44,373 bases of DNA, from positions 1 through 44,373 of the IMG/VR virus record IMGVR_UViG_3300045988_033491, one strand, 5' to 3'. Both the position numbers and the translations under genes were made by a program. The notes under the pieces are model-generated. The model was given only the letters and a program-made list of their open reading frames with translations. It was not told the origin of the DNA and ran no database searches. Positions 1 through 44,373 of the stretch are shown here, in pieces; positions within the stretch are counted from its first letter, which is position 1, and each line of letters begins with the position of its first letter. Source of the stretch: a virus.

Positions 1-46
1 GGGTGGTGGGATTTTCCAACCGGGGGGGTGGTGGGATTTTCCAACC
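1..46. repeat. Left part of an iteron-like tandem repeat array (unit GGGG(GGG)TGGTGGGATTTTCCAACC, 22-25 bp). Bases 1-36 duplicate 44338-44373 (terminal redundancy or circular closure).
   Basis: Direct reading: 1-21 and 22-46 are two repeat units. The 36-mer gggtggtgggattttccaaccgggggggtggtggga occurs at both window ends. Confidence 0.9.
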
Positions 47-299
47 ACTCCAAAACCGCCCAATAATTCGTCGTATATTCGCAATAACGAACCTTGTTTT
101 TTTCGTACTCAAATTTTGTAATGTACTGTTTTTCAACTAACGATTTGAGTATTTTAATAACGGTTGTTTTGTCTAACCCCGTCCACTCAATAAGGTATCG
201 CAACGACCCCTTAAAACGACTTTCCCCGTCTTGACTAAACCCGTGTATCAAAGCGAAAACCAACAATTCGTTACCTTTCAACTTTAACCGGGTAATCAT
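1..299 (-). CDS. 5' (N-terminal) part of a wrap-around gene: winged-helix/HTH domain of a putative replisome organizer or replication initiator.
   Basis: ATG at 299-297 and the frame stays open to base 1. It translates as MITRLKLKGNELLVFALIHGFSQDGESRFKGSLRYLIEWTGLDKTTVIKILKSLVEKQYITKFEYEKNKVRYCEYTTNYWAVLEWLENPTTPPVGKS... This is in the same frame as 43830..44373 once the 36-bp overlap is collapsed. Function is inferred from the HTH-like pattern and the embedded iterons. Confidence 0.6.
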   Translation of the reverse strand, partial: MITRLKLKGNELLVFALIHGFSQDGESRFKGSLRYLIEWTGLDKTTVIKILKSLVEKQYITKFEYEKNKVRYCEYTTNYWAVLEWLENPTTPPVGKSHH

Positions 300-330
300 C
301 GGGGCTAAAATCGTTATATAATTACTATCT

Positions 331-561
331 CTAATTGTCATTGTCAACCGTTTTATAAATTATACTTTTCCCGTCCTCCCTTTGGCTCGGACTACACAAA
401 CAACGGTTACATAAATCCGGGAATTGATTTAATACACATTGTTGGCAATCATATTGCCCCAAATTCTCAACACATACCGCCGTAATATAAAATTCGTGTC
501 GGCGGCGTATATTGATAGGGTCGCCCGGAACCGGGGCGAATTGTCGTTTACTTACTGCCAT
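331..561 (-). CDS. Hypothetical Cys-rich small protein (76 aa).
   Basis: ATG at 561 preceded by GGAGGGGGGCGAAA. It overlaps the upstream stop by 14 nt. Several Cys residues (CVENLGQYDCQQC...CNRCLC). Confidence 0.6.
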   Translation of the reverse strand: MAVSKRQFAPVPGDPINIRRRHEFYITAVCVENLGQYDCQQCVLNQFPDLCNRCLCSPSQREDGKSIIYKTVDNDN

Positions 562-3534: not shown

Positions 3535-3581
3535 ATCATTGCCCGGTATCCCTCCGGGTAGGCTGTTATTCTTTCGTTCTG

Positions 3582-3612
3582 CAAATGTAGAAAGAATATT
3601 TTAATTACCAAA
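3582..3612 (-). promoter_or_regulatory. Bacteroidota-type promoter P1 (-33 TTTG, 19-bp spacer, -7 TACATTTG) with a leader hairpin at 3542-3558.
   Basis: Plus strand has caaatgta at 3582-3589 and caaa at 3609-3612, with a 19-bp spacer. The cccgg/ccggg stem at 3542-3546/3554-3558 lies 8 nt upstream of the ATG at 3534. Confidence 0.7.
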
Positions 3613-3712
3613 AATAAAACCTTTGTTTTGAAAATCATTTTTACGGGGTGCATTGGATAACAACATTTTTAGCATATCTTTGCAATACCGCATTACCAAA
3701 TATCGCTCTCGG

Positions 3713-6030: not shown

Positions 6031-6083
6031 TGTATCGCTCTTTTTGTTCCGGGAAAACGCCCGGTCGTTGTATTAACATGGTG

Positions 6084-6114
6084 CAAATATAGGGCTTTTA
6101 TTTCAACTACCAAA
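6084..6114 (-). promoter_or_regulatory. Bacteroidota-type promoter P2 (-33 TTTG, 19-bp spacer, -7 TATATTTG) with a leader hairpin at 6049-6064.
   Basis: Plus strand has caaatata at 6084-6091 and caaa at 6111-6114. The 23-mer ccgggaaaacgcccggtcgttgt (6049-6071) is repeated exactly at 41843-41865. Confidence 0.75.
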
Positions 6115-6274
6115 GAAATTTCTTTTTATTTTCGTGTTTTCGCATAAAAAATTATTCTTTTGGTATCCCGCAAAGTTATTTTTGGGTAATTTTTGATTTA
6201 AGACACTTTATTTGCCGGGACGGGTATTTTATCCACTCGGACAAAATAATTGAAATTTGGGGCTAAAAACGGGC

Positions 6275-8100: not shown

Positions 8101-10734
8101 TTATCCTACCTTAACAACGATATAACAGGTTTCGCCCTCCACATACGTTGCGTTAACGTAAAACCCATTGTTATAAACGTCGGTTTTCAACTCGGCGTTC
8201 TTTGCCTCGACAACCTCAATTGTTTTGCCGTCCAATTCAGCGTTAACAATAACATGGTCTAACGTCGTACCGGAATAGTCAACAAACACGTATTCCGAAC
8301 CGTTGAACGTGCAATTGTACATCGACAAACGATTGGCGGGTTGCGTAACGTCAAAGAAACAACGATACATTACGGCGGTAAACATTTTCCCCGGTGTTAA
8401 CGTGTCGCCCTGTGCAATACTATCGACGCCATGCGGGTAAACTTTCCCGGTATTGTTTCGCAATTCAAATGTTCGTCCGGTATATGTTTTCAAATCCTTA
8501 CCCACTCCGGCGGCTTTGAGGAACCCAATAGCAAATCCGACGGCGGGGGCTAACTGAACAACACGATTAACCGGGTTATCGGCATCCGCCCAATTTGCCG
8601 ACGTAAAATATATACTTGGTACGGACGTACTCCAATTTACGGCTAACGGTTTACGGAAATCGTACCCGGCAACGGGCAACGAATTAGGTACGTAATATTT
8701 GGTACTCGCCGCAACGCCAACGGGGATTGCTTGCGTAAACATTATATCCGACAATTTAACCGTTTGATTTGATACGACGTTAGTAATAACAACAACGGAT
8801 AAATTAGGCAAAAATCGGTATATGTTCTCTACGTGTATCATTGGCGTACTCGTAAACACGGGGTCGCCGGATTGTCCCGCCCTCGCAATAATGTTATCCA
8901 ATACCTCGGCGGTATTAACAATATCGTATTCCTCGACAACATCGACAAAATCACAACCGAACGTTTGCGCCTCTGTAATTTCAGTAACGCCGTTTTGCAA
9001 TACCTTTTGTTTTACATTAAATACGCTTTCATACAATTGCGTTGGCGCAACGGCGGATACTGTCATTGTCTGCGCACCGCTCGTTAACGTTCCGGTCGAA
9101 AGGTTTACAAATGTTTGATTTTCCGGCGTTCCTGTGTTTTCGGAAAGGAATACAATATTATTTCCGTCAACAATACGCATAATATAAAATTTGGTTCCGT
9201 TCGTGTGCGTCCATTCCGTACCGATTGCGGTATTATCTTTCCCGTGTGCGTTTATGGTTCCAATCATACACGGTTGCGCATGGTTCGCCCCTATCGTTGT
9301 ATTTTGTACGTGCATCGGTGCGACGTCATCGCCATTTGTATTCGTGGCGGCTCCTATTCTCCAATTTACAAAATTGAACATTGGATTACCCGCATAATTT
9401 GGATTATTGGCGGCATATCTGTTTAACGTTCCCGCAATGAAATCCGAACCACGTTTTACCGTAATGCCGGGGTTGGCAAATTCAACGGTTAATTTGGATT
9501 TTCCACCCATACCCGTAATTGCTTGCATAACATCGGATTTGTTTACCAACGTTAGTGCGTTCTTTTCGGCGTATGATTGTCCGTTATCATAATGCACCGA
9601 TTTTTCTAAAAAATAAGACTCAAAAGGTGCGGACGCTCCCAAAAATACCCCAGTCAATCGTAAATCGTAAATCATTGGTTCGGTATTTGGCGAACCGTTA
9701 TAACTTGCAACTCGGATATATTCGCAACCGTCCGGGATTGTTACGGTTTCTACGTCTGCAACTTGCGTGTTCGGTATATTAACTTGCGTACCTGTAAAGA
9801 AATTAACATAACGGCATGCTCCTATTACTCCGCCACTTCGCATACCATAAAGACGGTACGTTTGCCCGGCAACAACAGGAACAAAACCGGACGTTGATAA
9901 CGACGGGTATGTATACGGATTGCCTGCTGCATTTAAATAAAAACCGTGTTCGTATGTATCGGGGTTCAACAGGTTTGTTTCGCTTATCTTTTCCACAACG
10001 TCGAAAGCATTCGTAACCTTTTGCACATTGGTTAGGCTTTCGGCAAATGTCGTTAATTGAGCTTGTATGTCGTCTATCCCTTTGGGTACAACGTATATAT
10101 CTTGGTTTGCCGGGTTTCCAACATAACCGGGGAATGAAACAGCAAACCAAAAAACGACCTCATTTTGACCGACCGTAATTTTGGTTGTTCCTTGCGGCAA
10201 TAAAATACGCCGAACCAATGACCCGTTACCGTCCAACATATAATTATGCATGTCGCTGCGGTCGTTAGTTACATACAAGACTTGACCCGGTTTAACATTC
10301 AATTTAATACATTTGTGATCCGGGTTAGTAGAAGGAACATAAACATATCTGCTAGAATCTATATATCCCTGTACATAATTAAGAGTTGGCGACGCTTGCG
10401 TTGCGTAATTGTTTATATCCAACATATTGGGAATATCAATTTGCACTCCGTTCCAAATGCCCGTCGCATTGCTCAATATGGCAATTCCACGGGTCAAAGT
10501 GAAATTATTAAAATTGGTGTATGTTCCCAAATTGGTTGCAAACCAAAATTGCGGGCTATCCGCCCCGCTTGGGTTTGTATTAAAAGTTGCCATACCTCGG
10601 AATTGTTGACCCAATCCCAATGCGTTAACCATACTGAACAACGTTTGTTGTAACAAGTTGCCCGTAATCTCGTTTTTTCCGTTTTGCTTAATTACATTAG
10701 CAATTGCGGCTTTTAAGTCTGTATAATTTGCCAT
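8101..10734 (-). CDS. Tail fibre / receptor-binding protein (877 aa).
   Basis: Start refined to the ATG at 10734 (MANYTDLKAAIANVIKQNGKNEITGNLLQQTLFSMVNALG...). It is the last large structural gene before the lysis cassette and contains beta-rich repeated modules. Confidence 0.65.
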   Translation of the reverse strand: MANYTDLKAAIANVIKQNGKNEITGNLLQQTLFSMVNALGLGQQFRGMATFNTNPSGADSPQFWFATNLGTYTNFNNFTLTRGIAILSNATGIWNGVQIDIPNMLDINNYATQASPTLNYVQGYIDSSRYVYVPSTNPDHKCIKLNVKPGQVLYVTNDRSDMHNYMLDGNGSLVRRILLPQGTTKITVGQNEVVFWFAVSFPGYVGNPANQDIYVVPKGIDDIQAQLTTFAESLTNVQKVTNAFDVVEKISETNLLNPDTYEHGFYLNAAGNPYTYPSLSTSGFVPVVAGQTYRLYGMRSGGVIGACRYVNFFTGTQVNIPNTQVADVETVTIPDGCEYIRVASYNGSPNTEPMIYDLRLTGVFLGASAPFESYFLEKSVHYDNGQSYAEKNALTLVNKSDVMQAITGMGGKSKLTVEFANPGITVKRGSDFIAGTLNRYAANNPNYAGNPMFNFVNWRIGAATNTNGDDVAPMHVQNTTIGANHAQPCMIGTINAHGKDNTAIGTEWTHTNGTKFYIMRIVDGNNIVFLSENTGTPENQTFVNLSTGTLTSGAQTMTVSAVAPTQLYESVFNVKQKVLQNGVTEITEAQTFGCDFVDVVEEYDIVNTAEVLDNIIARAGQSGDPVFTSTPMIHVENIYRFLPNLSVVVITNVVSNQTVKLSDIMFTQAIPVGVAASTKYYVPNSLPVAGYDFRKPLAVNWSTSVPSIYFTSANWADADNPVNRVVQLAPAVGFAIGFLKAAGVGKDLKTYTGRTFELRNNTGKVYPHGVDSIAQGDTLTPGKMFTAVMYRCFFDVTQPANRLSMYNCTFNGSEYVFVDYSGTTLDHVIVNAELDGKTIEVVEAKNAELKTDVYNNGFYVNATYVEGETCYIVVKVG

Positions 10735-10744
10735 AATAAAAAAG

Positions 10745-11617
10745 TTATAAAATGTTGTTTTTGAAATCGTTATTATAATCATTGTTGAAATCGCCGCCCG
10801 TTGGCGTAATGTATCCCCGTCCAATCTTTTTAATAACCGTTGCGGTCTGAAATTCCGCCTCAACGCTTGCTAAATTACCCTGTGTTTGCCATTTGGGGGT
10901 AATCAAAAACGTATCGCACGGATAAACACGCCCGTAATTATCGGTAACGGTTACAAAATCACTCATACGGATTATACGCATTACATCGCAAAGGTATTCG
11001 GGGGCTAAAAAAACAAACCTGTATGTCTTTTCGCTAACCTGTTTTTCCGGGAAAAAATACCCGTCCCGGTTTTCGCCCTCTTCCTCAAACACGTATTCCG
11101 GTTTTCCCAACTGCGTACAAAGGTACAAACGGTTTTTATACAGGGGGTCAACGTACACAATTTGCCCGTCGTCAAATACCATGTTTTCAACGTCGTACCA
11201 TTCAATTGTTAAATAGTTGGTATTCGTCATATTTACCAACGTAAAAACTTCGGAATACCACGTTTGCGCCCCGTCGGATAATTGGGCATAATATTGCCCC
11301 TCCGCCGAACTCCATATTAACGGCAACAAAGCCGTATAAACAATAACGTCATAACCCAAAGCCTCAAACGGGACAATTGACAATCCCGTTTCGGCAATCT
11401 GTGTGGTTAAATCTGCAACCTGTGTTCCGTCAATCTTATAAATCCTAAAATAATTTAGTCCGTTTGTACGGTGCGGGCGCACAATCTGAAACGGCAACAA
11501 CATATTCAACGGCGTAAACAGGGGGTAAACGTCCCCGTATGAATATGTTTTGCGGTGGTTCTGTTCGTCTAACGACTGATACCACGGTAAAACGCTTAAA
11601 TTATTATTCTGTATCAT
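10745..11617 (-). CDS. Tail/baseplate structural protein (290 aa).
   Basis: Sits between two large distal tail genes and overlaps the upstream gene by 14 nt. C-terminal DFNNDYNNDF motif. Confidence 0.55.
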   Translation of the reverse strand: MIQNNNLSVLPWYQSLDEQNHRKTYSYGDVYPLFTPLNMLLPFQIVRPHRTNGLNYFRIYKIDGTQVADLTTQIAETGLSIVPFEALGYDVIVYTALLPLIWSSAEGQYYAQLSDGAQTWYSEVFTLVNMTNTNYLTIEWYDVENMVFDDGQIVYVDPLYKNRLYLCTQLGKPEYVFEEEGENRDGYFFPEKQVSEKTYRFVFLAPEYLCDVMRIIRMSDFVTVTDNYGRVYPCDTFLITPKWQTQGNLASVEAEFQTATVIKKIGRGYITPTGGDFNNDYNNDFKNNIL

Positions 11618-21532: not shown

Positions 21533-22642
21533 TTACGCACCACCCCCGGCGGGAAATTGTGCGGCGTTCGTTACATAAACGGGCATACCTAACGGTTCGT
21601 TCGGGTTACGTGCGGCAATCTCGGCTTTGATAATCGGGTTTGCCACGGTGTCCGGGTTGCTGTTATATGCTACCATGTAGGCAACATCAACAGAAAATCC
21701 GAAATACTCCTTAACGGCACACGTCAAATCGGCGGTTGCGTCGCCCATGATTGCGGACTGGTCGCCAACGGCGGTGTAATAGTGCGAACCAACGGGCAAA
21801 TCAATGTACGGCAAACGTACAACGTCCCATTCGTGGAAATTCGCACGGGTGCGGCGCAATGCCTCACGGTCAACCCTTGTAAGAATACCAACGTTACCGT
21901 CCGCAACGGCAAACATTGTTCCCATTTTTCCGCTTTCGTCCGTTACGTTGTTCGTGTAATGCAATACTTTGTTATCGTATTCCATACGCTTGTTAACGTC
22001 GTTGTAAACCCCGTGTTGTGCCAACTTGCGGATAAGGCTATCAACCCCGGCGTTTGCGATTAAGTGGATATATTCCGGGTAACAGTTAGCCCGCATAATC
22101 GGGTTAATATCGCCCAAAATTTCGGTTGCCATTTGGGTTGGAACCTGTACAACATTTCCGGTCTGCGTGTAGTTAAGCAAGGTTTTGAAAACCTGTGTTT
22201 TGTTTGCCTCCAATGCGGCAACCGCTCCGACGTCCAATTTGTCAGCCAACGCACGACACGTTTTTTCCATTTTACGCAAAAAATCGTGTTCGTATGAAAT
22301 TTCGTTGTTCATGTATGCGGCGGGAACCATAGTAAACCCAATTGCATACGTCGCCCAAACGACCGTTACCAATGCGGACGTATTTTCATCGTCTGCGATA
22401 ACGCACGAACGCACGTTGCTAACTTGTACATCCCCGTCGTAATTGATAACCGGGATTTGTACGGTATTACCGATTGACGCAAACGCACGGTCGCGCAAAT
22501 TCGGATTAATGATTGAGGACGGTGCGTTGGTTTGCTCAATAAAGAAATCCAATGCGCCATACTCACACGGGCGGGTCATATTACGGTCTAATTCCGGGTT
22601 CTCAATCCGCCAATTCTGCAATCTTGTTGCTACTAATGACAT
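21533..22642 (-). CDS. Major capsid protein (369 aa).
   Basis: Its size, its position right after the scaffold-like gene, and the strong hairpin downstream. No motif-level proof. Confidence 0.7.
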   Translation of the reverse strand: MSLVATRLQNWRIENPELDRNMTRPCEYGALDFFIEQTNAPSSIINPNLRDRAFASIGNTVQIPVINYDGDVQVSNVRSCVIADDENTSALVTVVWATYAIGFTMVPAAYMNNEISYEHDFLRKMEKTCRALADKLDVGAVAALEANKTQVFKTLLNYTQTGNVVQVPTQMATEILGDINPIMRANCYPEYIHLIANAGVDSLIRKLAQHGVYNDVNKRMEYDNKVLHYTNNVTDESGKMGTMFAVADGNVGILTRVDREALRRTRANFHEWDVVRLPYIDLPVGSHYYTAVGDQSAIMGDATADLTCAVKEYFGFSVDVAYMVAYNSNPDTVANPIIKAEIAARNPNEPLGMPVYVTNAAQFPAGGGA

Positions 22643-22696
22643 AATCTAAAATTTTTATTGTTTATAAATGCGGGTTTACCCTTTACCCGTGGTTGT

Positions 22697-41821: not shown

Positions 41822-41877
41822 TGCTTTATGTATTTAGCGTTACCGGGAAAACGCCCGGTCGTTGTTATTTCATGCCG

Positions 41878-41908
41878 CAAATCTACGTATATTATTTTAA
41901 TTACCAAA
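41878..41908 (-). promoter_or_regulatory. Bacteroidota-type promoter P4 (-33 TTTG, 19-bp spacer, -7 TAGATTTG) with a leader hairpin at 41843-41858.
   Basis: Plus strand has caaatcta at 41878-41885 and caaa at 41905-41908. The spacer AATATACGTA is shared with P3. Confidence 0.75.
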
Positions 41909-41919
41909 ACTTTTTTCTT

Positions 41920-42111
41920 TTATTTTTTAAGTTTTCGCAATAATCGACCCAAAATAACAACCTTACCAATTCCGGGAAACTCAACTAACATATTGCCATT
42001 GCGTCCCCGAATACATTTGCCGTCTAAACGACGAACCGCCCGGCACGGCATACGTCGCAATTCCGGGCGGGTCAATCGGTCGCCTAAATAGATATAATCC
42101 ATTTCGTCCAT
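41920..42111 (-). CDS. Hypothetical protein (63 aa).
   Basis: ATG at 42111, 1 nt after the upstream stop. Confidence 0.5.
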   Translation of the reverse strand: MDEMDYIYLGDRLTRPELRRMPCRAVRRLDGKCIRGRNGNMLVEFPGIGKVVILGRLLRKLKK

Positions 42112-42360: not shown

Positions 42361-42897
42361 TTAAAATAAACGATTGTGCATTGGGGCGGGTAAATTTTCC
42401 AAAACCCAACGGGGGTTGTTATGTAAAATGTATCGTCCAAAGTGTAAAATCATAAGCGCATCGGCGTTCCACAATGTCGCCTTAACATCCGGGTAATAAT
42501 CGGCGGCGGCTCGTTGGTATCGCTTTTTGCGTTCGGGCTTTTCCTCCCCCTTAACACGCAATTTCAATTCGTTTTGCCATTTTTGGGGGTGTACCAAAAC
42601 AAACGGTACGTCGCACATGGCAATTATCGTTTTCAGTTTCTCAAACTCCGACAACAGTTTTTGCACCCGGAACGCCTTACCGGGGTTGTCGTTTACATCG
42701 TCCGGGCGCAATTGCACCTTTTCGACGAAAACAAGCGGTTTACAAATACTTTTCATGTACTCAAACCATTGTTTCAACTCCATAAGGTCGGCGGGCATCT
42801 TGATAACCTCGGTTTTATGGTTCGGACGCCAAACGGCAATCCCTCCGGTTTTTCCGGGGTCAATGCCAATAATACAATCAATCGTTATTTTATTCAT
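42361..42897 (-). CDS. RuvC-like Holliday junction resolvase.
   Basis: IIGIDPGKTGGIAVW...VFVEKV is the RuvC-fold catalytic pattern. The ATG at 42897 forms an ATGA overlap with the upstream stop. Confidence 0.7.
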   Translation of the reverse strand: MNKITIDCIIGIDPGKTGGIAVWRPNHKTEVIKMPADLMELKQWFEYMKSICKPLVFVEKVQLRPDDVNDNPGKAFRVQKLLSEFEKLKTIIAMCDVPFVLVHPQKWQNELKLRVKGEEKPERKKRYQRAAADYYPDVKATLWNADALMILHFGRYILHNNPRWVLENLPAPMHNRLF

Positions 42898-43826
42898 TTC
42901 CAAAAATTCAAATAATCATCAACTTGCAATTCGTCCGCAATCATACGGTCGAACGCTTTTATTATCTCTTTTCTCCGGGCAACCTCAAACGCCGTATAAT
43001 CAATTTCTTTGCTTTTGGTTCCATCCTTACGAACATGGTAAACGGTAAATTCATTTACGAACCCACGGGCGGCACGGGCTAAAAACCGCCCCAATGCCTC
43101 CCGGCGGTCGTCCTCGGTTTCTTTCACTTCATCCGCCAAACCAACAGCCAATAACCAATTATAAACGAACATTTCCCCGGCAATACCGAAATCGACCCGT
43201 CCGGTATATTTGTATTGCAGAAACGCCAAACGGTTACGGCTTTCCGTGTCGTTGTGGTAATATCGTTTTTGCTCCGGGGTTAACTCCTTTTTCGGTTCCG
43301 GCAATGCTTTGTACGCTTTGGCAATAACTCCGTTTTGTTTTCGCCTGTATGCGTTCAATATCTTTGCGAAATAATCGGCGTTAAACTGTTGGTAGTGGTG
43401 TTTGTCCGGTTGCCCGTCCCGTCCTTTTGGCAAATATTCGTCCAATTCCCCGGTTGCGGTTAACTCAAATGCCAACTTAACGTCCGCTAATGTTAGTTGC
43501 GAAAAGTATTTTTTGAGTATATCCAACAACCGGGTACAAATATACGCCCAATCGTCGGCGTTGGTCGGGATTATATACCCAACGTCCATTGCTATAAACC
43601 GGAACATTTGCCCGGTTTTAGCAACCAACGTGGCGTCGTCAATCTCGGCAATCTGTGTTTTGGTTGACGCCGCAAAAATATACTTTTCAACCGACGACAA
43701 CGATTTGGCAACCTCCGGTAATTGTACCATTTGGCGGCGTATCTCTATTGCTTTGGTTCCGGGCGGGGGATTATATACCGCCAACGCCACGGATTGCGTA
43801 TTTATCTTTTCCGGCAATTGTTCCAT
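42894..43826 (-). CDS. Hypothetical replication-module protein (310 aa).
   Basis: It lies immediately downstream of the organizer-like gene. No NTPase motif seen. Confidence 0.65.
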   Translation of the reverse strand: MEQLPEKINTQSVALAVYNPPPGTKAIEIRRQMVQLPEVAKSLSSVEKYIFAASTKTQIAEIDDATLVAKTGQMFRFIAMDVGYIIPTNADDWAYICTRLLDILKKYFSQLTLADVKLAFELTATGELDEYLPKGRDGQPDKHHYQQFNADYFAKILNAYRRKQNGVIAKAYKALPEPKKELTPEQKRYYHNDTESRNRLAFLQYKYTGRVDFGIAGEMFVYNWLLAVGLADEVKETEDDRREALGRFLARAARGFVNEFTVYHVRKDGTKSKEIDYTAFEVARRKEIIKAFDRMIADELQVDDYLNFWK

Positions 43827-43829
43827 TTA

Positions 43830-44373
43830 TTAATAATCGTTATTAAGAAATTCCATTGCGCCCGCTACATTCAAACGACTTTGCGGGGCTTGGTATTCCG
43901 GTTTCAAATGTAATTTCTTCTTTTCCACATCGCCACGAATGAAATTGCGTACCGTGGCAATCCAACCCGTCCGGGTGCGCTTAACTCCCTGTTTGGTTTC
44001 CGACCAATCGGCGACGGTATGGAAATAATAAACCAAATCGACCTTTTCAAATTCCGGCGTCGCAAATAGTTTTTCAAACTCGGAATAATCGTTTACGCCG
44101 TCCGCCCCAAACTTAACCAATTTGTAAACCTCGGAATTGCGAAATATAGACGTTCTTTTTTTATCCTTATCGTCAACCTTTTGTTCATCCGGGAACAAAT
44201 CCCCGACAACCCCGTTGGCGGGTTTATCCTTATCGGTATCTAAAGAGTTATCTATATTAGTATTTAATATAGGGTTGGATTTTCCTACCGGGGTGGTGGG
44301 ATTTTCCAACCGGGGGGGTGGTGGTGTTTCGCAACCGGGGTGGTGGGATTTTCCAACCGGGGGGGTGGTGGGA
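43830..44373 (-). CDS. 3' (C-terminal) part of the wrap-around replisome-organizer-like gene.
   Basis: The frame is open from the window end down to the stop at 43830. The track start at 44309 is a TTG inside the repeat. Joined with 1..299, the gene encodes about 268 aa. Confidence 0.6.
   Translation of the reverse strand, partial: PTTPPVGKSHHPGCETPPPPRLENPTTPVGKSNPILNTNIDNSLDTDKDKPANGVVGDLFPDEQKVDDKDKKRTSIFRNSEVYKLVKFGADGVNDYSEFEKLFATPEFEKVDLVYYFHTVADWSETKQGVKRTRTGWIATVRNFIRGDVEKKKLHLKPEYQAPQSRLNVAGAMEFLNNDY
44290..44373. repeat. Right part of the iteron-like tandem repeat array.
   Basis: Units at 44290-44311, 44312-44336 (variant ggtggtgtttcgcaacc) and 44337-44358, plus a partial unit at 44359-44373. 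Confidence 0.9.

What the first reader, a model, noticed from the sequence alone, without database searches (positions are those of the whole stretch)
44238..44373. Iteron-like repeats plus an AT-rich tract inside the replisome-organizer gene: a putative lambda-O-style origin
In the circular molecule there are four tandem units of GGGG(GGG)TGGTGGGATTTTCCAACC, arranged as two 47-bp double units with one degenerate unit. In window coordinates they lie at 44290-44373 and 1-46. They fall exactly in the linker after the N-terminal winged-helix domain of the wrap-around gene, where they encode ENPTTPPVGKS-type peptide repeats. Immediately downstream in gene orientation is a 31-bp tract with only 4 G/C (44241-44271). 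In phage lambda, ori consists of iterons plus an AT-rich region embedded in the O initiator gene. The same layout here suggests the initiator binds repeats within its own coding sequence.
Basis: partly seen in the sequence, partly recalled or inferred. Interest (0 to 1): 0.65.

Follow-up and report, generated by a model that had tools for sequence, protein, structure and literature searches.

The report
Replication origin inside phage initiator gene
A gut Bacteroidales phage carries five short DNA repeats and an easily melted AT-rich stretch inside the gene for its own replication-initiator protein, which is the classic lambda-type origin layout, supported here by about ninety related phages but not yet by experiment.

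Summary
The window is a circular phage genome with a 36-bp terminal overlap. Once that is trimmed, a 282-aa gene on the minus strand wraps around the ends.

Its layout is: an N-terminal winged-helix domain, then five tandem DNA units spaced 25/22/25/22 bp, then a 31-bp tract with 4 G/C, then a conserved C-terminal domain.

The repeats behave as DNA elements, not peptide repeats:
- The same unit is read in all three frames.
- Each unit is a dyad (GGTTGG-AAAAT-CCMACC).
- Across 27 distinct relatives, synonymous-site diversity in the array falls below that of any other equal-sized stretch of the gene.

In 86 related loci the same C-terminal domain is fused to at least five different N-terminal domains. 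Each has its own repeat family at the same position, always followed by an AT-rich tract. Flanks that are 96-98% identical show the N-domain and repeats are exchanged as one cassette.

More distant homologues in phages B40-8 and FCV-1 repeat the pattern.

This matches the lambda O/ori and SPP1 G38P/oriL architecture, so I call it a new member of a known kind. Binding and replication initiation are inferred, not shown. GC skew is uninformative. The conserved C-domain and the conserved downstream 310-aa protein match no known family.

The parts
1..341 (-). 5' part of the initiator gene. The ATG is at 341, with an alternative ATG at 299. The winged-helix N-domain (aa 9-101) spans 317 down to 39. 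Repeat units 1 and 2 lie at 46 down to 1.
   Evidence: Translation of the trimmed circle gives a 282-aa ORF. Pfam HTH_36 matches aa 20-74. AlphaFold pLDDT is 72-88 for aa 9-101.
43830..44337 (-). 3' part of the initiator gene. It holds units 2-5, the AT tract, a disordered linker and the conserved C-terminal domain. The stop codon is at 43830-43832.
   Evidence: Residues 105-176 have pLDDT below 50. Residues 177-282 have block-mean pLDDT of about 77-90, falling to 55-70 near the C-terminus.
44338..44373 (.). Terminal redundancy: an exact copy of window 1-36. It is not extra sequence in the circle.
   Evidence: s[:36] equals s[-36:]. A raw join would create a truncated unit and 12 extra aa seen in no homologue.
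22..46 (-). Repeat unit 1 in gene order, 25 bp: GGTTGGAAAATCCCACCACCCCCCC. It is read as LENPTTPP.
1..21 (-). Repeat unit 2, 22 bp, completed by base 44337: GGTTGGAAAATCCCACCACCCC. It is read in a second frame as VGKSHHP. The same unit appears as 44337-44358 in the end copy.
44312..44336 (-). Repeat unit 3, 25 bp, degenerate: GGTTGCGAAACACCACCACCCCCCC. It is read in the third frame as GCETPPPP. The degeneracy is conserved in most relatives.
44290..44311 (-). Repeat unit 4, 22 bp: GGTTGGAAAATCCCACCACCCC.
44272..44289 (-). Repeat unit 5, degenerate: GGTAGGAAAATCCAACCC.
   Evidence: TRF finds 4.8 copies. The same fifth unit is present in BKO1-3.
44241..44271 (.). AT-rich tract, the candidate DNA-unwinding element: 4 G/C in 31 bp. 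It encodes part of the disordered linker (ILNTNIDNSL).
   Evidence: It is one of 8 such regions in the genome. By my reading of the ORF list the other 7 lie at gene boundaries, so it is the only one inside a gene. It is the third least stable 40-mer. An AT tract follows the repeats in all five module types and in B40-8 and FCV-1.
43833..44225 (-). Conserved C-terminal module, from KPANGVVGDLF to the end. It is shared by all N-domain types. No known family matches it. Its inferred role is recruiting the replication machinery.
   Evidence: No Pfam, NCBIfam or PDB match.
1..556 (-). Left part of the exchangeable specificity cassette. The cassette runs 556 down to 1, then 44337 down to 44293. It contains a small 76-aa ORF (331-561), the N-domain and the repeats.
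   Evidence: Type-B1 locus L007 is 97.7% identical up to window 557 and 95.7% identical from window 44292 onward. Nothing in between aligns.
42894..43826 (-). Conserved downstream 310-aa all-alpha protein (phrog_34953). It sits next to the initiator gene in every relative. It is a candidate partner, by analogy with lambda P after O, but that is inference only.
   Evidence: Synteny in six isolate phages. No family or fold match.

Best explanation
This is the phage's replication origin, built like ori-lambda and embedded in the initiator gene.

Proposed mechanism:
1. Dimers of the initiator's N-terminal winged-helix domain bind the five dyad-symmetric 17-bp cores (GGTTGG-AAAAT-CCMACC).
2. The cores are spaced 22 or 25 bp apart, so their A-tracts are roughly in phase.
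3. The resulting nucleoprotein complex strains and opens the adjacent 31-bp AT-rich tract.
4. The conserved C-terminal domain then brings in the helicase. This is most likely the host's, because no phage helicase, primase or polymerase is recognisable. The conserved 310-aa downstream protein may take part.

The cis-elements sit in the part of the gene that encodes a disordered linker, where the protein tolerates them.

Shown here:
- the anatomy;
- constraint at the DNA level;
- exchange of the N-domain and repeats as one unit;
- recurrence of the layout in distant relatives.

Inferred:
- binding;
- unwinding;
- helicase recruitment;
- that replication starts at this site.
For: The protein:
- HTH_36 above its Pfam cut-off, with DnaD_N just below.
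- PHROG hits to replication-initiation, DnaD-like and O-like families.
- The model shows a winged-helix domain, a 70-residue disordered linker and a folded C-domain. The repeats and AT tract lie in the linker.
- The DnaD N-domain is the second-best structural match.

The repeats act at the DNA level:
- Spacing is 25/22/25/22 bp, so one unit is translated in all three frames.
- The commonest unit across relatives, GGTTGGAAAATCCAACC, is a perfect 6+5+6 dyad. It accounts for 70 of 133 units.
- In 27 distinct genes, third-position versus first/second-position diversity is 6.6 in the N-domain, 3.2 in the C-domain and 0.92 in the array.
- Third-position diversity in the array is 0.060. The lowest value among 481 equal-sized windows elsewhere in the gene is 0.136.
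- The type-C array shows the same drop.

Comparison with relatives:
- Across the 86 loci plus this window, the same C-domain carries N-domain types A, B1, B2, C and D.
- Their repeat families have periods of 22/25, 15, 15, 23-24 and 21 bp, and the motifs are strictly type-specific.
- Each array is followed directly by an AT-rich tract.
- The cassette boundaries fall at the repeat/AT-tract junction, between flanks 96-98% identical.
- The C-domains closest to the window's (97% and 95%) belong to type-B1 genes, so modules have been exchanged.
- HTH_36 homologues in B. fragilis phage B40-8 and Flavobacterium phage FCV-1 also carry dyad repeats followed by an AT tract. These are GGTGAAAATCACC x4 and GGTGCAGAAACTGCACC x3.

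Precedent:
- Lambda ori lies in the middle of gene O, as iterons plus an AT-rich tract. Extra iterons add residues to O (PMC7466680).
- SPP1 oriL lies inside gene 38, as repeated boxes plus an AT-rich unwinding element (PMC5737612).

Context:
- The phage encodes SSB, an exonuclease and a Holliday-junction resolvase.
- No helicase, primase or polymerase was recognised among the ORFs scanned.
Against: - There is no experimental or read-depth evidence.
- GC skew is uniformly negative and gives no origin signal.
- The N-domain is a generic winged helix. Its best structural matches have E of about 3e-3, and MarR-type regulators score as well as DnaD. One source names homologues 'MarR family transcriptional regulator'.
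- The C-domain and the downstream protein match nothing known, so the recruitment step rests on analogy.
- The type-B1 array (15-bp, in-frame units) shows no drop in synonymous diversity.
- The N-domain and repeats are adjacent, so their co-inheritance could reflect linkage rather than function.
- Some assembled relatives have only one or two units. If that is real, it is few for an iteron origin.
Confidence: 0.75

Rival explanations
1. The repeats are binding sites for the winged-helix protein, but they act as an operator (autoregulation or transcription control) or another nucleoprotein site, not as the origin. The origin would lie elsewhere, for example in an AT-rich intergenic region.
For: The N-domain's structural neighbours include many MarR/SarX-type regulators. 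One source calls homologues MarR-family regulators. Other AT-rich regions exist, such as 41888-41936 and 22634-22671.
Against: - PHROG similarity is to initiators and DnaD-like loaders, not repressors.
- The other AT-rich regions lie at gene boundaries. Two of them (3588-3619 and 41888-41936) fall within the repeated promoter-like element.
- No other tandem array exists in the genome.
- An operator would not need an adjacent AT tract conserved across five unrelated repeat families.
- This reading does not exclude the origin reading. Initiators often autoregulate (my knowledge of plasmid Rep proteins).
Confidence: 0.12
2. The repeats are a neutral by-product of replication slippage in a Pro/Thr-rich disordered linker and have no cis function.
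For: - The array lies in a predicted disordered linker.
- Copy number varies among assemblies.
- The type-B1 array shows no synonymous constraint.
Against: - Synonymous sites in the type-A array are two to three times more conserved than anywhere else in the gene.
- Units are dyad-symmetric.
- The layout of five units spaced 22 or 25 bp is kept across relatives 70-93% identical.
- At least five, and with B40-8 and FCV-1 seven, unrelated repeat families occupy the same position, each with an AT tract.
Confidence: 0.08
3. The array is real, but its unit number in this window is an assembly artefact, because the contig ends lie inside the array.
For: - The contig breaks inside the array with a 36-bp overlap.
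- Three of the 33 type-A loci that include the array have N- and C-domains in different frames, because a 47-bp or 22-bp unit is missing. Truncated ORF clusters P0089, P0093, P0094 and P0110 fit the same pattern.
- This is the expected signature of short-read collapse.
Against: - The trimmed circle gives an intact frame and the modal five-unit layout, seen in 21 of 30 distinct arrays.
- The layout is identical to isolate BKO1-3 and to the 282-aa homologues.
- Adding 47 or 94 bp would break the frame.
- This rival concerns copy number only, not the nature of the element.
Confidence: 0.05

Closest known systems
Phage lambda ori inside gene O (lambdoid phages, including Stx phages)
   Same: - The origin lies in the middle of the initiator gene.
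- The order along the coding strand is the same: N-terminal DNA-binding domain, tandem iterons, AT-rich tract, C-terminal domain.
- Iterons carry G-tracts and an A-tract and are bent, and iteron number varies between relatives (4 versus 6) with matching extra residues in the protein (PMC7466680).
- The phage depends on the host replisome.
- From my knowledge of lambdoid hybrid-phage work, the N-domain and iterons form the specificity module.
   Different: - The protein is not a Pfam Phage_rep_O member (no hit). It has only a weak PHROG 'O-like' match (E 3.6e-8).
- The C-domain is unrelated and uncharacterised.
- No P-like or DnaC-like loader is recognisable.
- The host is Bacteroidota.
- Unit spacing of 22/25 bp puts the units in three reading frames.
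Bacillus phage SPP1 oriL inside gene 38 (replisome organizer G38P)
   Same: Repeated binding boxes and an adjacent AT-rich unwinding element are embedded in the gene of the protein that binds them. The initiator has no AAA+ domain (PMC5737612).
   Different: - SPP1 encodes its own helicase (G40P) and loader (G39P). None is found here.
- G38P belongs to pfam09524, which this protein does not match.
- SPP1 has a second site, oriR. No convincing second array exists here.
DnaD-like N-terminal winged-helix proteins (phage 'DnaD-like helicase loader', PHROG 186)
   Same: The N-domain matches DnaD_N at 24.3 bits. The DnaD N-domain 2v79 is the second-best fold match. PHROG 186 matches at E 1e-8.
   Different: The Pfam score is below the cut-off of 27. 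There is no DnaD/DnaB_2 C-terminal domain.
Iteron plasmids (Rep/pi/RepA type origins)
   Same: The logic is the same: tandem iterons bound by a winged-helix initiator next to an AT-rich unwinding element (review PMC4980987, listed but not read in detail).
   Different: In those plasmids the iterons are usually intergenic. There is no Rep_3-type match here. Only weak N-domain hits were found in plasmids.

Membership tests
Lambda-type intragenic phage origin (architecture) | Three or more tandem direct repeats inside the initiator gene, between the DNA-binding and C-terminal domains | tested here: met
   Five units at 46-1 and 44337-44272, in the disordered linker after the winged-helix domain.
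Lambda-type intragenic phage origin (architecture) | An AT-rich tract directly next to the repeats, on the C-terminal side | tested here: met
   44241-44271 has 4 G/C in 31 bp and is the only such tract inside a gene. It is present in all module types.
Lambda-type intragenic phage origin (architecture) | Repeat units have internal dyad symmetry and an A-tract, as binding sites for dimers would | tested here: met
   GGTTGG-AAAAT-CCAACC is a perfect dyad in 70 of 133 units. The window's variant matches 5 of 6 arm positions.
Lambda-type intragenic phage origin (architecture) | Repeats are selected as DNA, not as peptide | tested here: met
   Units are read in three frames. Third-position diversity is 0.060, against a minimum of 0.136 elsewhere in the gene. 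Type C agrees and type B1 does not.
Lambda-type intragenic phage origin (architecture) | The N-domain and repeats form an exchangeable specificity module on a constant C-domain | tested here: met
   Five N-domain types each have their own repeat family. Cassette boundaries fall at the repeat/AT junction.
Lambda-type intragenic phage origin (architecture) | The initiator binds the repeats | not testable with these tools
   Needs EMSA or footprinting.
Lambda-type intragenic phage origin (architecture) | Replication initiates at this site | not testable with these tools
   GC skew is uninformative.
Lambda O protein family (Pfam Phage_rep_O) | Sequence match to the family model | tested here: not met
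   No Pfam hit at E 0.01 or better. There is only a weak PHROG 678 'O-like' match at E 3.6e-8.
SPP1 G38P replisome organizer family (pfam09524 and related) | Sequence match to the family models | tested here: not met
   No Pfam hit for the whole protein or for the C-domain alone, even at E up to 10.
DnaD N-terminal domain (PF21984) | Score at or above the gathering cut-off | tested here: inconclusive
   24.3 bits against a cut-off of 27. The fold match to 2v79 has E 4e-3.
HTH_36 (PF13730) | Score at or above the gathering cut-off | tested here: met
   31.8 bits against a cut-off of 25, covering aa 20-74.

The most novel reading that the evidence does not exclude
Near-identical gut Bacteroidales phages (flanks 96-98% identical) carry at least five interchangeable initiator-N-domain-plus-iteron cassettes. 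This diversity may be actively selected. It could work as replication-specificity or incompatibility types that let co-infecting phages avoid competing for, or being inhibited by, each other's initiators or origin decoys.

A further speculation concerns indels of single 22-bp units or 47-bp double units. These break the frame and are seen in several assemblies. They could be real variants that switch the initiator off, or split it into two proteins, rather than assembly errors.
Probability: 0.15. Interest if true: 0.6.

Novelty: new member of a known kind. Interest (0 to 1): 0.4.

Why it matters
- As far as the searched literature shows, no replication origin has been defined for this group of Bacteroides, Parabacteroides and Alistipes siphophages. 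Their initiator genes are mostly annotated 'hypothetical protein'.
- A defined pair of initiator and origin would give a testable minimal replicon for Bacteroidota genetics, for example phagemids or vectors.
- It would also give a way to type these abundant gut phages by replication module.
- It provides a clean natural series of swapped specificity cassettes for studying how initiators recognise origins.
- Practically, the array explains why assemblies break or frameshift at this gene.

Tried and rejected
- **GC skew**. It is monotonic and negative because all genes share one strand, so it gives no origin signal.
- **Sequencing runs** to check copy number or depth.
- **C-domain identity.** No hit in Pfam or NCBIfam, in a PDB profile search, or in the fold search, where all hits fell on the N-domain.
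- **Downstream 310-aa protein.** Its model has mean pLDDT 77, but no PDB fold match has E below 0.8. The helicase-loader idea stays untested.
- **Exact-match search for the junction** in viral contigs. Neither the trimmed nor the raw form was found, so this says nothing either way.
- **Genome-contig scan** for a two-unit pattern. It found only one 2-kb contig in a MAG. The array is not found in the host genomes or plasmids scanned.
- **Plasmid search.** Only weak N-domain hits appeared.
- **Second binding site like SPP1 oriR.** An inverted pair of near-matches lies at 9471-9508, but hits outside the array (5) are not clearly above chance (2.7 expected).
- **Synonymous-constraint test on type B1.** Negative.
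- **Rfam.** No RNA family anywhere in the window.

Full report
**1. What is in the sequence**

The window's last 36 bases are an exact copy of its first 36. It is therefore a circular assembly of 44337 bp written with a terminal overlap.

Almost all long ORFs lie on the minus strand. On the trimmed circle one minus-strand gene wraps around the ends. Its ATG is at window 341, and it runs down to 1, then from 44337 down to the stop at 43830-43832. It encodes 282 aa.

A raw end-to-end join is also in frame. However, it creates a truncated repeat unit and 12 extra residues that none of 27 aligned homologues has.

Gene order across the junction is exonuclease, Gp3-like protein, this gene, a 310-aa protein, then a Holliday-junction resolvase. 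The six related isolate phages keep this order around the gene, and five of them show it in full. In those genomes the region is internal to the record, so the wrap-around is sound.

**2. The repeats and the AT tract**

In gene orientation the array reads:

| Unit | Sequence | Length |
|---|---|---|
| 1 | GGTTGGAAAATCCCACCACCCCCCC | 25 bp |
| 2 | GGTTGGAAAATCCCACCACCCC | 22 bp |
| 3 | GGTTGCGAAACACCACCACCCCCCC | 25 bp, degenerate |
| 4 | GGTTGGAAAATCCCACCACCCC | 22 bp |
| 5 | GGTAGGAAAATCCAACCC | degenerate |

- TRF reports 4.8 copies.
- It is by far the strongest tandem repeat in the window, scoring 132 against 58 or less for any other.
- The 13-mer core with up to 2 mismatches occurs 11 times against 2.7 expected. 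None of 100 shuffles reached that number.

Directly after unit 5 comes TATATTAAATACTAATATAGATAACTCTTTA (44271 down to 44241), with 4 G/C in 31 bp.

- Only 8 regions of the genome are this AT-rich.
- By my reading of the ORF list, the other 7 lie at gene boundaries.
- It is the third least stable 40-mer in the genome.

**3. The protein**

- Pfam finds HTH_36 (31.8 bits, cut-off 25) and DnaD_N just below its cut-off.
- PHROGs match replication initiation proteins, a DnaD-like helicase loader and an O-like initiator, at E 1e-7 to 1e-10.
- The AlphaFold model has a winged-helix domain (aa 9-101, pLDDT 72-88), a disordered stretch (aa 105-176, pLDDT about 30) and a folded helical C-domain (aa 177-282).
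- The repeats (about aa 99-136) and the AT tract (about aa 136-147) fall almost entirely in the disordered stretch.
- The best PDB fold matches are winged-helix proteins. The DnaD N-terminal domain ranks second, but all matches have E of about 3e-3 or worse.
- The C-domain matches nothing in Pfam, NCBIfam or the PDB.

**4. The repeats are DNA elements, not peptide repeats**

- Spacings of 25 and 22 bp are not multiples of three. The same DNA unit is therefore read as LENPTTPP, VGKSHHP and GCETPPPP.
- Each unit is a dyad. Across 30 distinct arrays of this type the commonest core, GGTTGGAAAATCCAACC, is a perfect 6+5+6 inverted repeat (70 of 133 units). Spacing is only ever 22 or 25 bp, differing by one CCC codon. 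21 arrays have five units.
- In an alignment of 27 distinct genes, the ratio of third-position to first/second-position diversity is 6.6 in the N-domain and 3.2 in the C-domain. It is 0.92 in the array.
- Third-position diversity in the array is 0.060. That is below the minimum (0.136) of all 481 equal-sized windows elsewhere in the gene. Synonymous sites are thus constrained.
- The type-C array shows the same drop. The type-B1 array, with in-frame 15-bp units, does not.

**5. Comparative anatomy**

Searching viral contigs with the C-domain gave 80 loci. Six isolate phages were added. With the window that makes 87 genes, and the same C-domain is joined to at least five N-terminal domains:

| Type | N-terminus | Genes | Repeat family | Period | Units |
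|---|---|---|---|---|---|
| A (this window) | HTH_36 | 29, plus 4 frame-broken or cut off | GGTTGGAAAATCCMACC... | 22/25 bp | about 5 |
| B1 | MATNNTITRR... | 28 | ACGGAAAAYCCGGAT | 15 bp | 3-6 |
| B2 | MADTIRR... | 3 | similar to B1 | 15 bp | - |
| C | MKYTILINQ... | 21, plus 1 frame-broken | CCCCTAAACGAAAGTTTAGGG | 23-24 bp | 3 |
| D | - | 1 | AAATCCCGTTGAAGCGGAAAA | 21 bp | 4.3 |

- Motif counts are strictly type-specific.
- In every type the array sits at the same place and is followed at once by 30-60 bp of AT-rich DNA, then the shared C-domain.
- Type-B1 locus L007 is 97.7% identical to the window up to the end of the Gp3-like gene (window 557). It is 95.7% identical again from window 44292 onward. 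Nothing aligns between these points.
- In four further comparisons the right boundary falls within about 150 bp, from the AT tract to just inside the C-domain.
- The exchanged cassette is therefore the N-domain plus its repeats. The AT tract and C-domain belong to the constant part.
- The C-domains closest to the window's (97% and 95%) belong to type-B1 genes, so exchange has happened among close relatives.

More distant HTH_36 homologues show the same design:

- B. fragilis phage B40-8 gp23, which has a different C-domain, carries four 23-bp units with the dyad GGTGA-AAA-TCACC, then an AT tract.
- Flavobacterium phage FCV-1 gp53 carries three copies of GGTGCAG-AAA-CTGCACC, then an AT tract.

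**6. Mechanism proposed**

Initiator dimers bind the dyads through the winged-helix domain. The complex opens the adjacent AT tract. The constant C-domain then recruits the helicase.

The window encodes SSB, an exonuclease, a Gp3-like protein and a resolvase. It has no recognisable helicase, primase or polymerase. The host replisome is therefore probably used, as with lambda.

The conserved 310-aa neighbour could be a loader. Its model matches no solved fold, so this is only an analogy.

**7. Comparison with known systems**

- The layout is that of ori-lambda in gene O: iterons plus an AT-rich tract in the middle of the gene, with iteron number varying between relatives and adding residues to the protein (PMC7466680).
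- It is also that of SPP1 oriL inside gene 38 (PMC5737612).
- The protein is not a sequence member of the O or G38P families. It is only borderline DnaD_N-like.
- It therefore works like those systems but is a separate lineage.
- The phiPDS1 paper does not discuss an origin. Searches found no description of iterons in this phage group.

**8. Caveats**

- Binding and initiation are not shown.
- GC skew is useless here.
- Read data were not available.
- Co-inheritance of adjacent elements could be linkage.
- Three of the 33 type-A loci that include the array, and several ORF clusters, have the two domains in different frames because a 47-bp or 22-bp unit is missing. This is most simply explained by short-read collapse, so copy numbers from metagenome assemblies should be treated with care.
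- The window's own count rests on the trimmed join matching the modal layout and the isolate genome.

**9. Verdict**

This is a well-supported, lambda-style intragenic origin with its initiator, in a gut Bacteroidales siphophage. It is a new member of a known kind. I put confidence at 0.75 and interest at 0.4.

Noticed in passing
window 3565-3613, 6049-6132, 41843-41926: Three copies of a 50-84 nt intergenic repeat (families D6 and D7). On the gene strand each reads as a GC hairpin (CCGGGCGTTTTCCCGG) followed by TTTG...TAGATTTG-type boxes. From my knowledge, these resemble the Bacteroides promoter consensus (-33 TTTG, -7 TAnnTTTG). They are probably repeated terminator-promoter units. They account for two of the other very AT-rich spots.
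   Followed up: partly
L035, L047 and L052 (about 200 nt before position 1501 of each); proteins P0089, P0093, P0094, P0110: In several related contigs the N-domain and C-domain of the initiator are in different frames, because the array lacks a 47-bp double unit or a 22-bp unit (47 mod 3 = 2). This is most likely short-read collapse of the tandem array. Real split-gene variants cannot be excluded.
   Followed up: partly
window 9471-9483 (+) and 9496-9508 (-): An inverted pair of near-matches to the repeat core (GGTTGGCAAATTC and GGGTGGAAAATCC), 12 bp apart, inside the 920-aa ORF 8101-10863. Hits outside the array are not clearly above chance (5 against 2.7 expected), so this may mean nothing. 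SPP1 has a second initiator-binding site, which is why I noted it.
   Followed up: partly
window 43563-43580 and 43762-43785: GGGATTATATACC occurs twice, about 200 bp apart, inside the downstream 310-aa gene (seen). Unexplained.
   Followed up: no
window 331-561 (-): A small 76-aa ORF overlaps the initiator start by 11 nt and is part of the type-A cassette. It is absent from type-B loci, where the initiator gene overlaps or directly abuts the end of the Gp3-like gene. No family match.
   Followed up: partly
L003-L005, L007 and others compared with the window array: The type-A and type-B units share the core GGAAAATCC. Type-B N-domains give weak HTH_36 matches (E 8e-3 and 9e-4). The two modules may therefore be diverged relatives rather than unrelated. 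TAAATACTAAT is shared by their AT tracts.
   Followed up: partly
L089 (SFEB01000099.1, 164-200): The only hit to a two-unit type-A pattern in 185,579 species genomes is a 2-kb contig binned into a Clostridiales MAG. It is probably a mis-binned phage fragment.
   Followed up: no
window 42894-43826 (-): A conserved 310-aa all-alpha protein lies next to the initiator gene in all relatives. It has 1503 homologues at E 1e-3 or better, the 120 best listed being 74-100% identical and carrying no annotation. No Pfam, NCBIfam or PDB fold match.
   Followed up: yes
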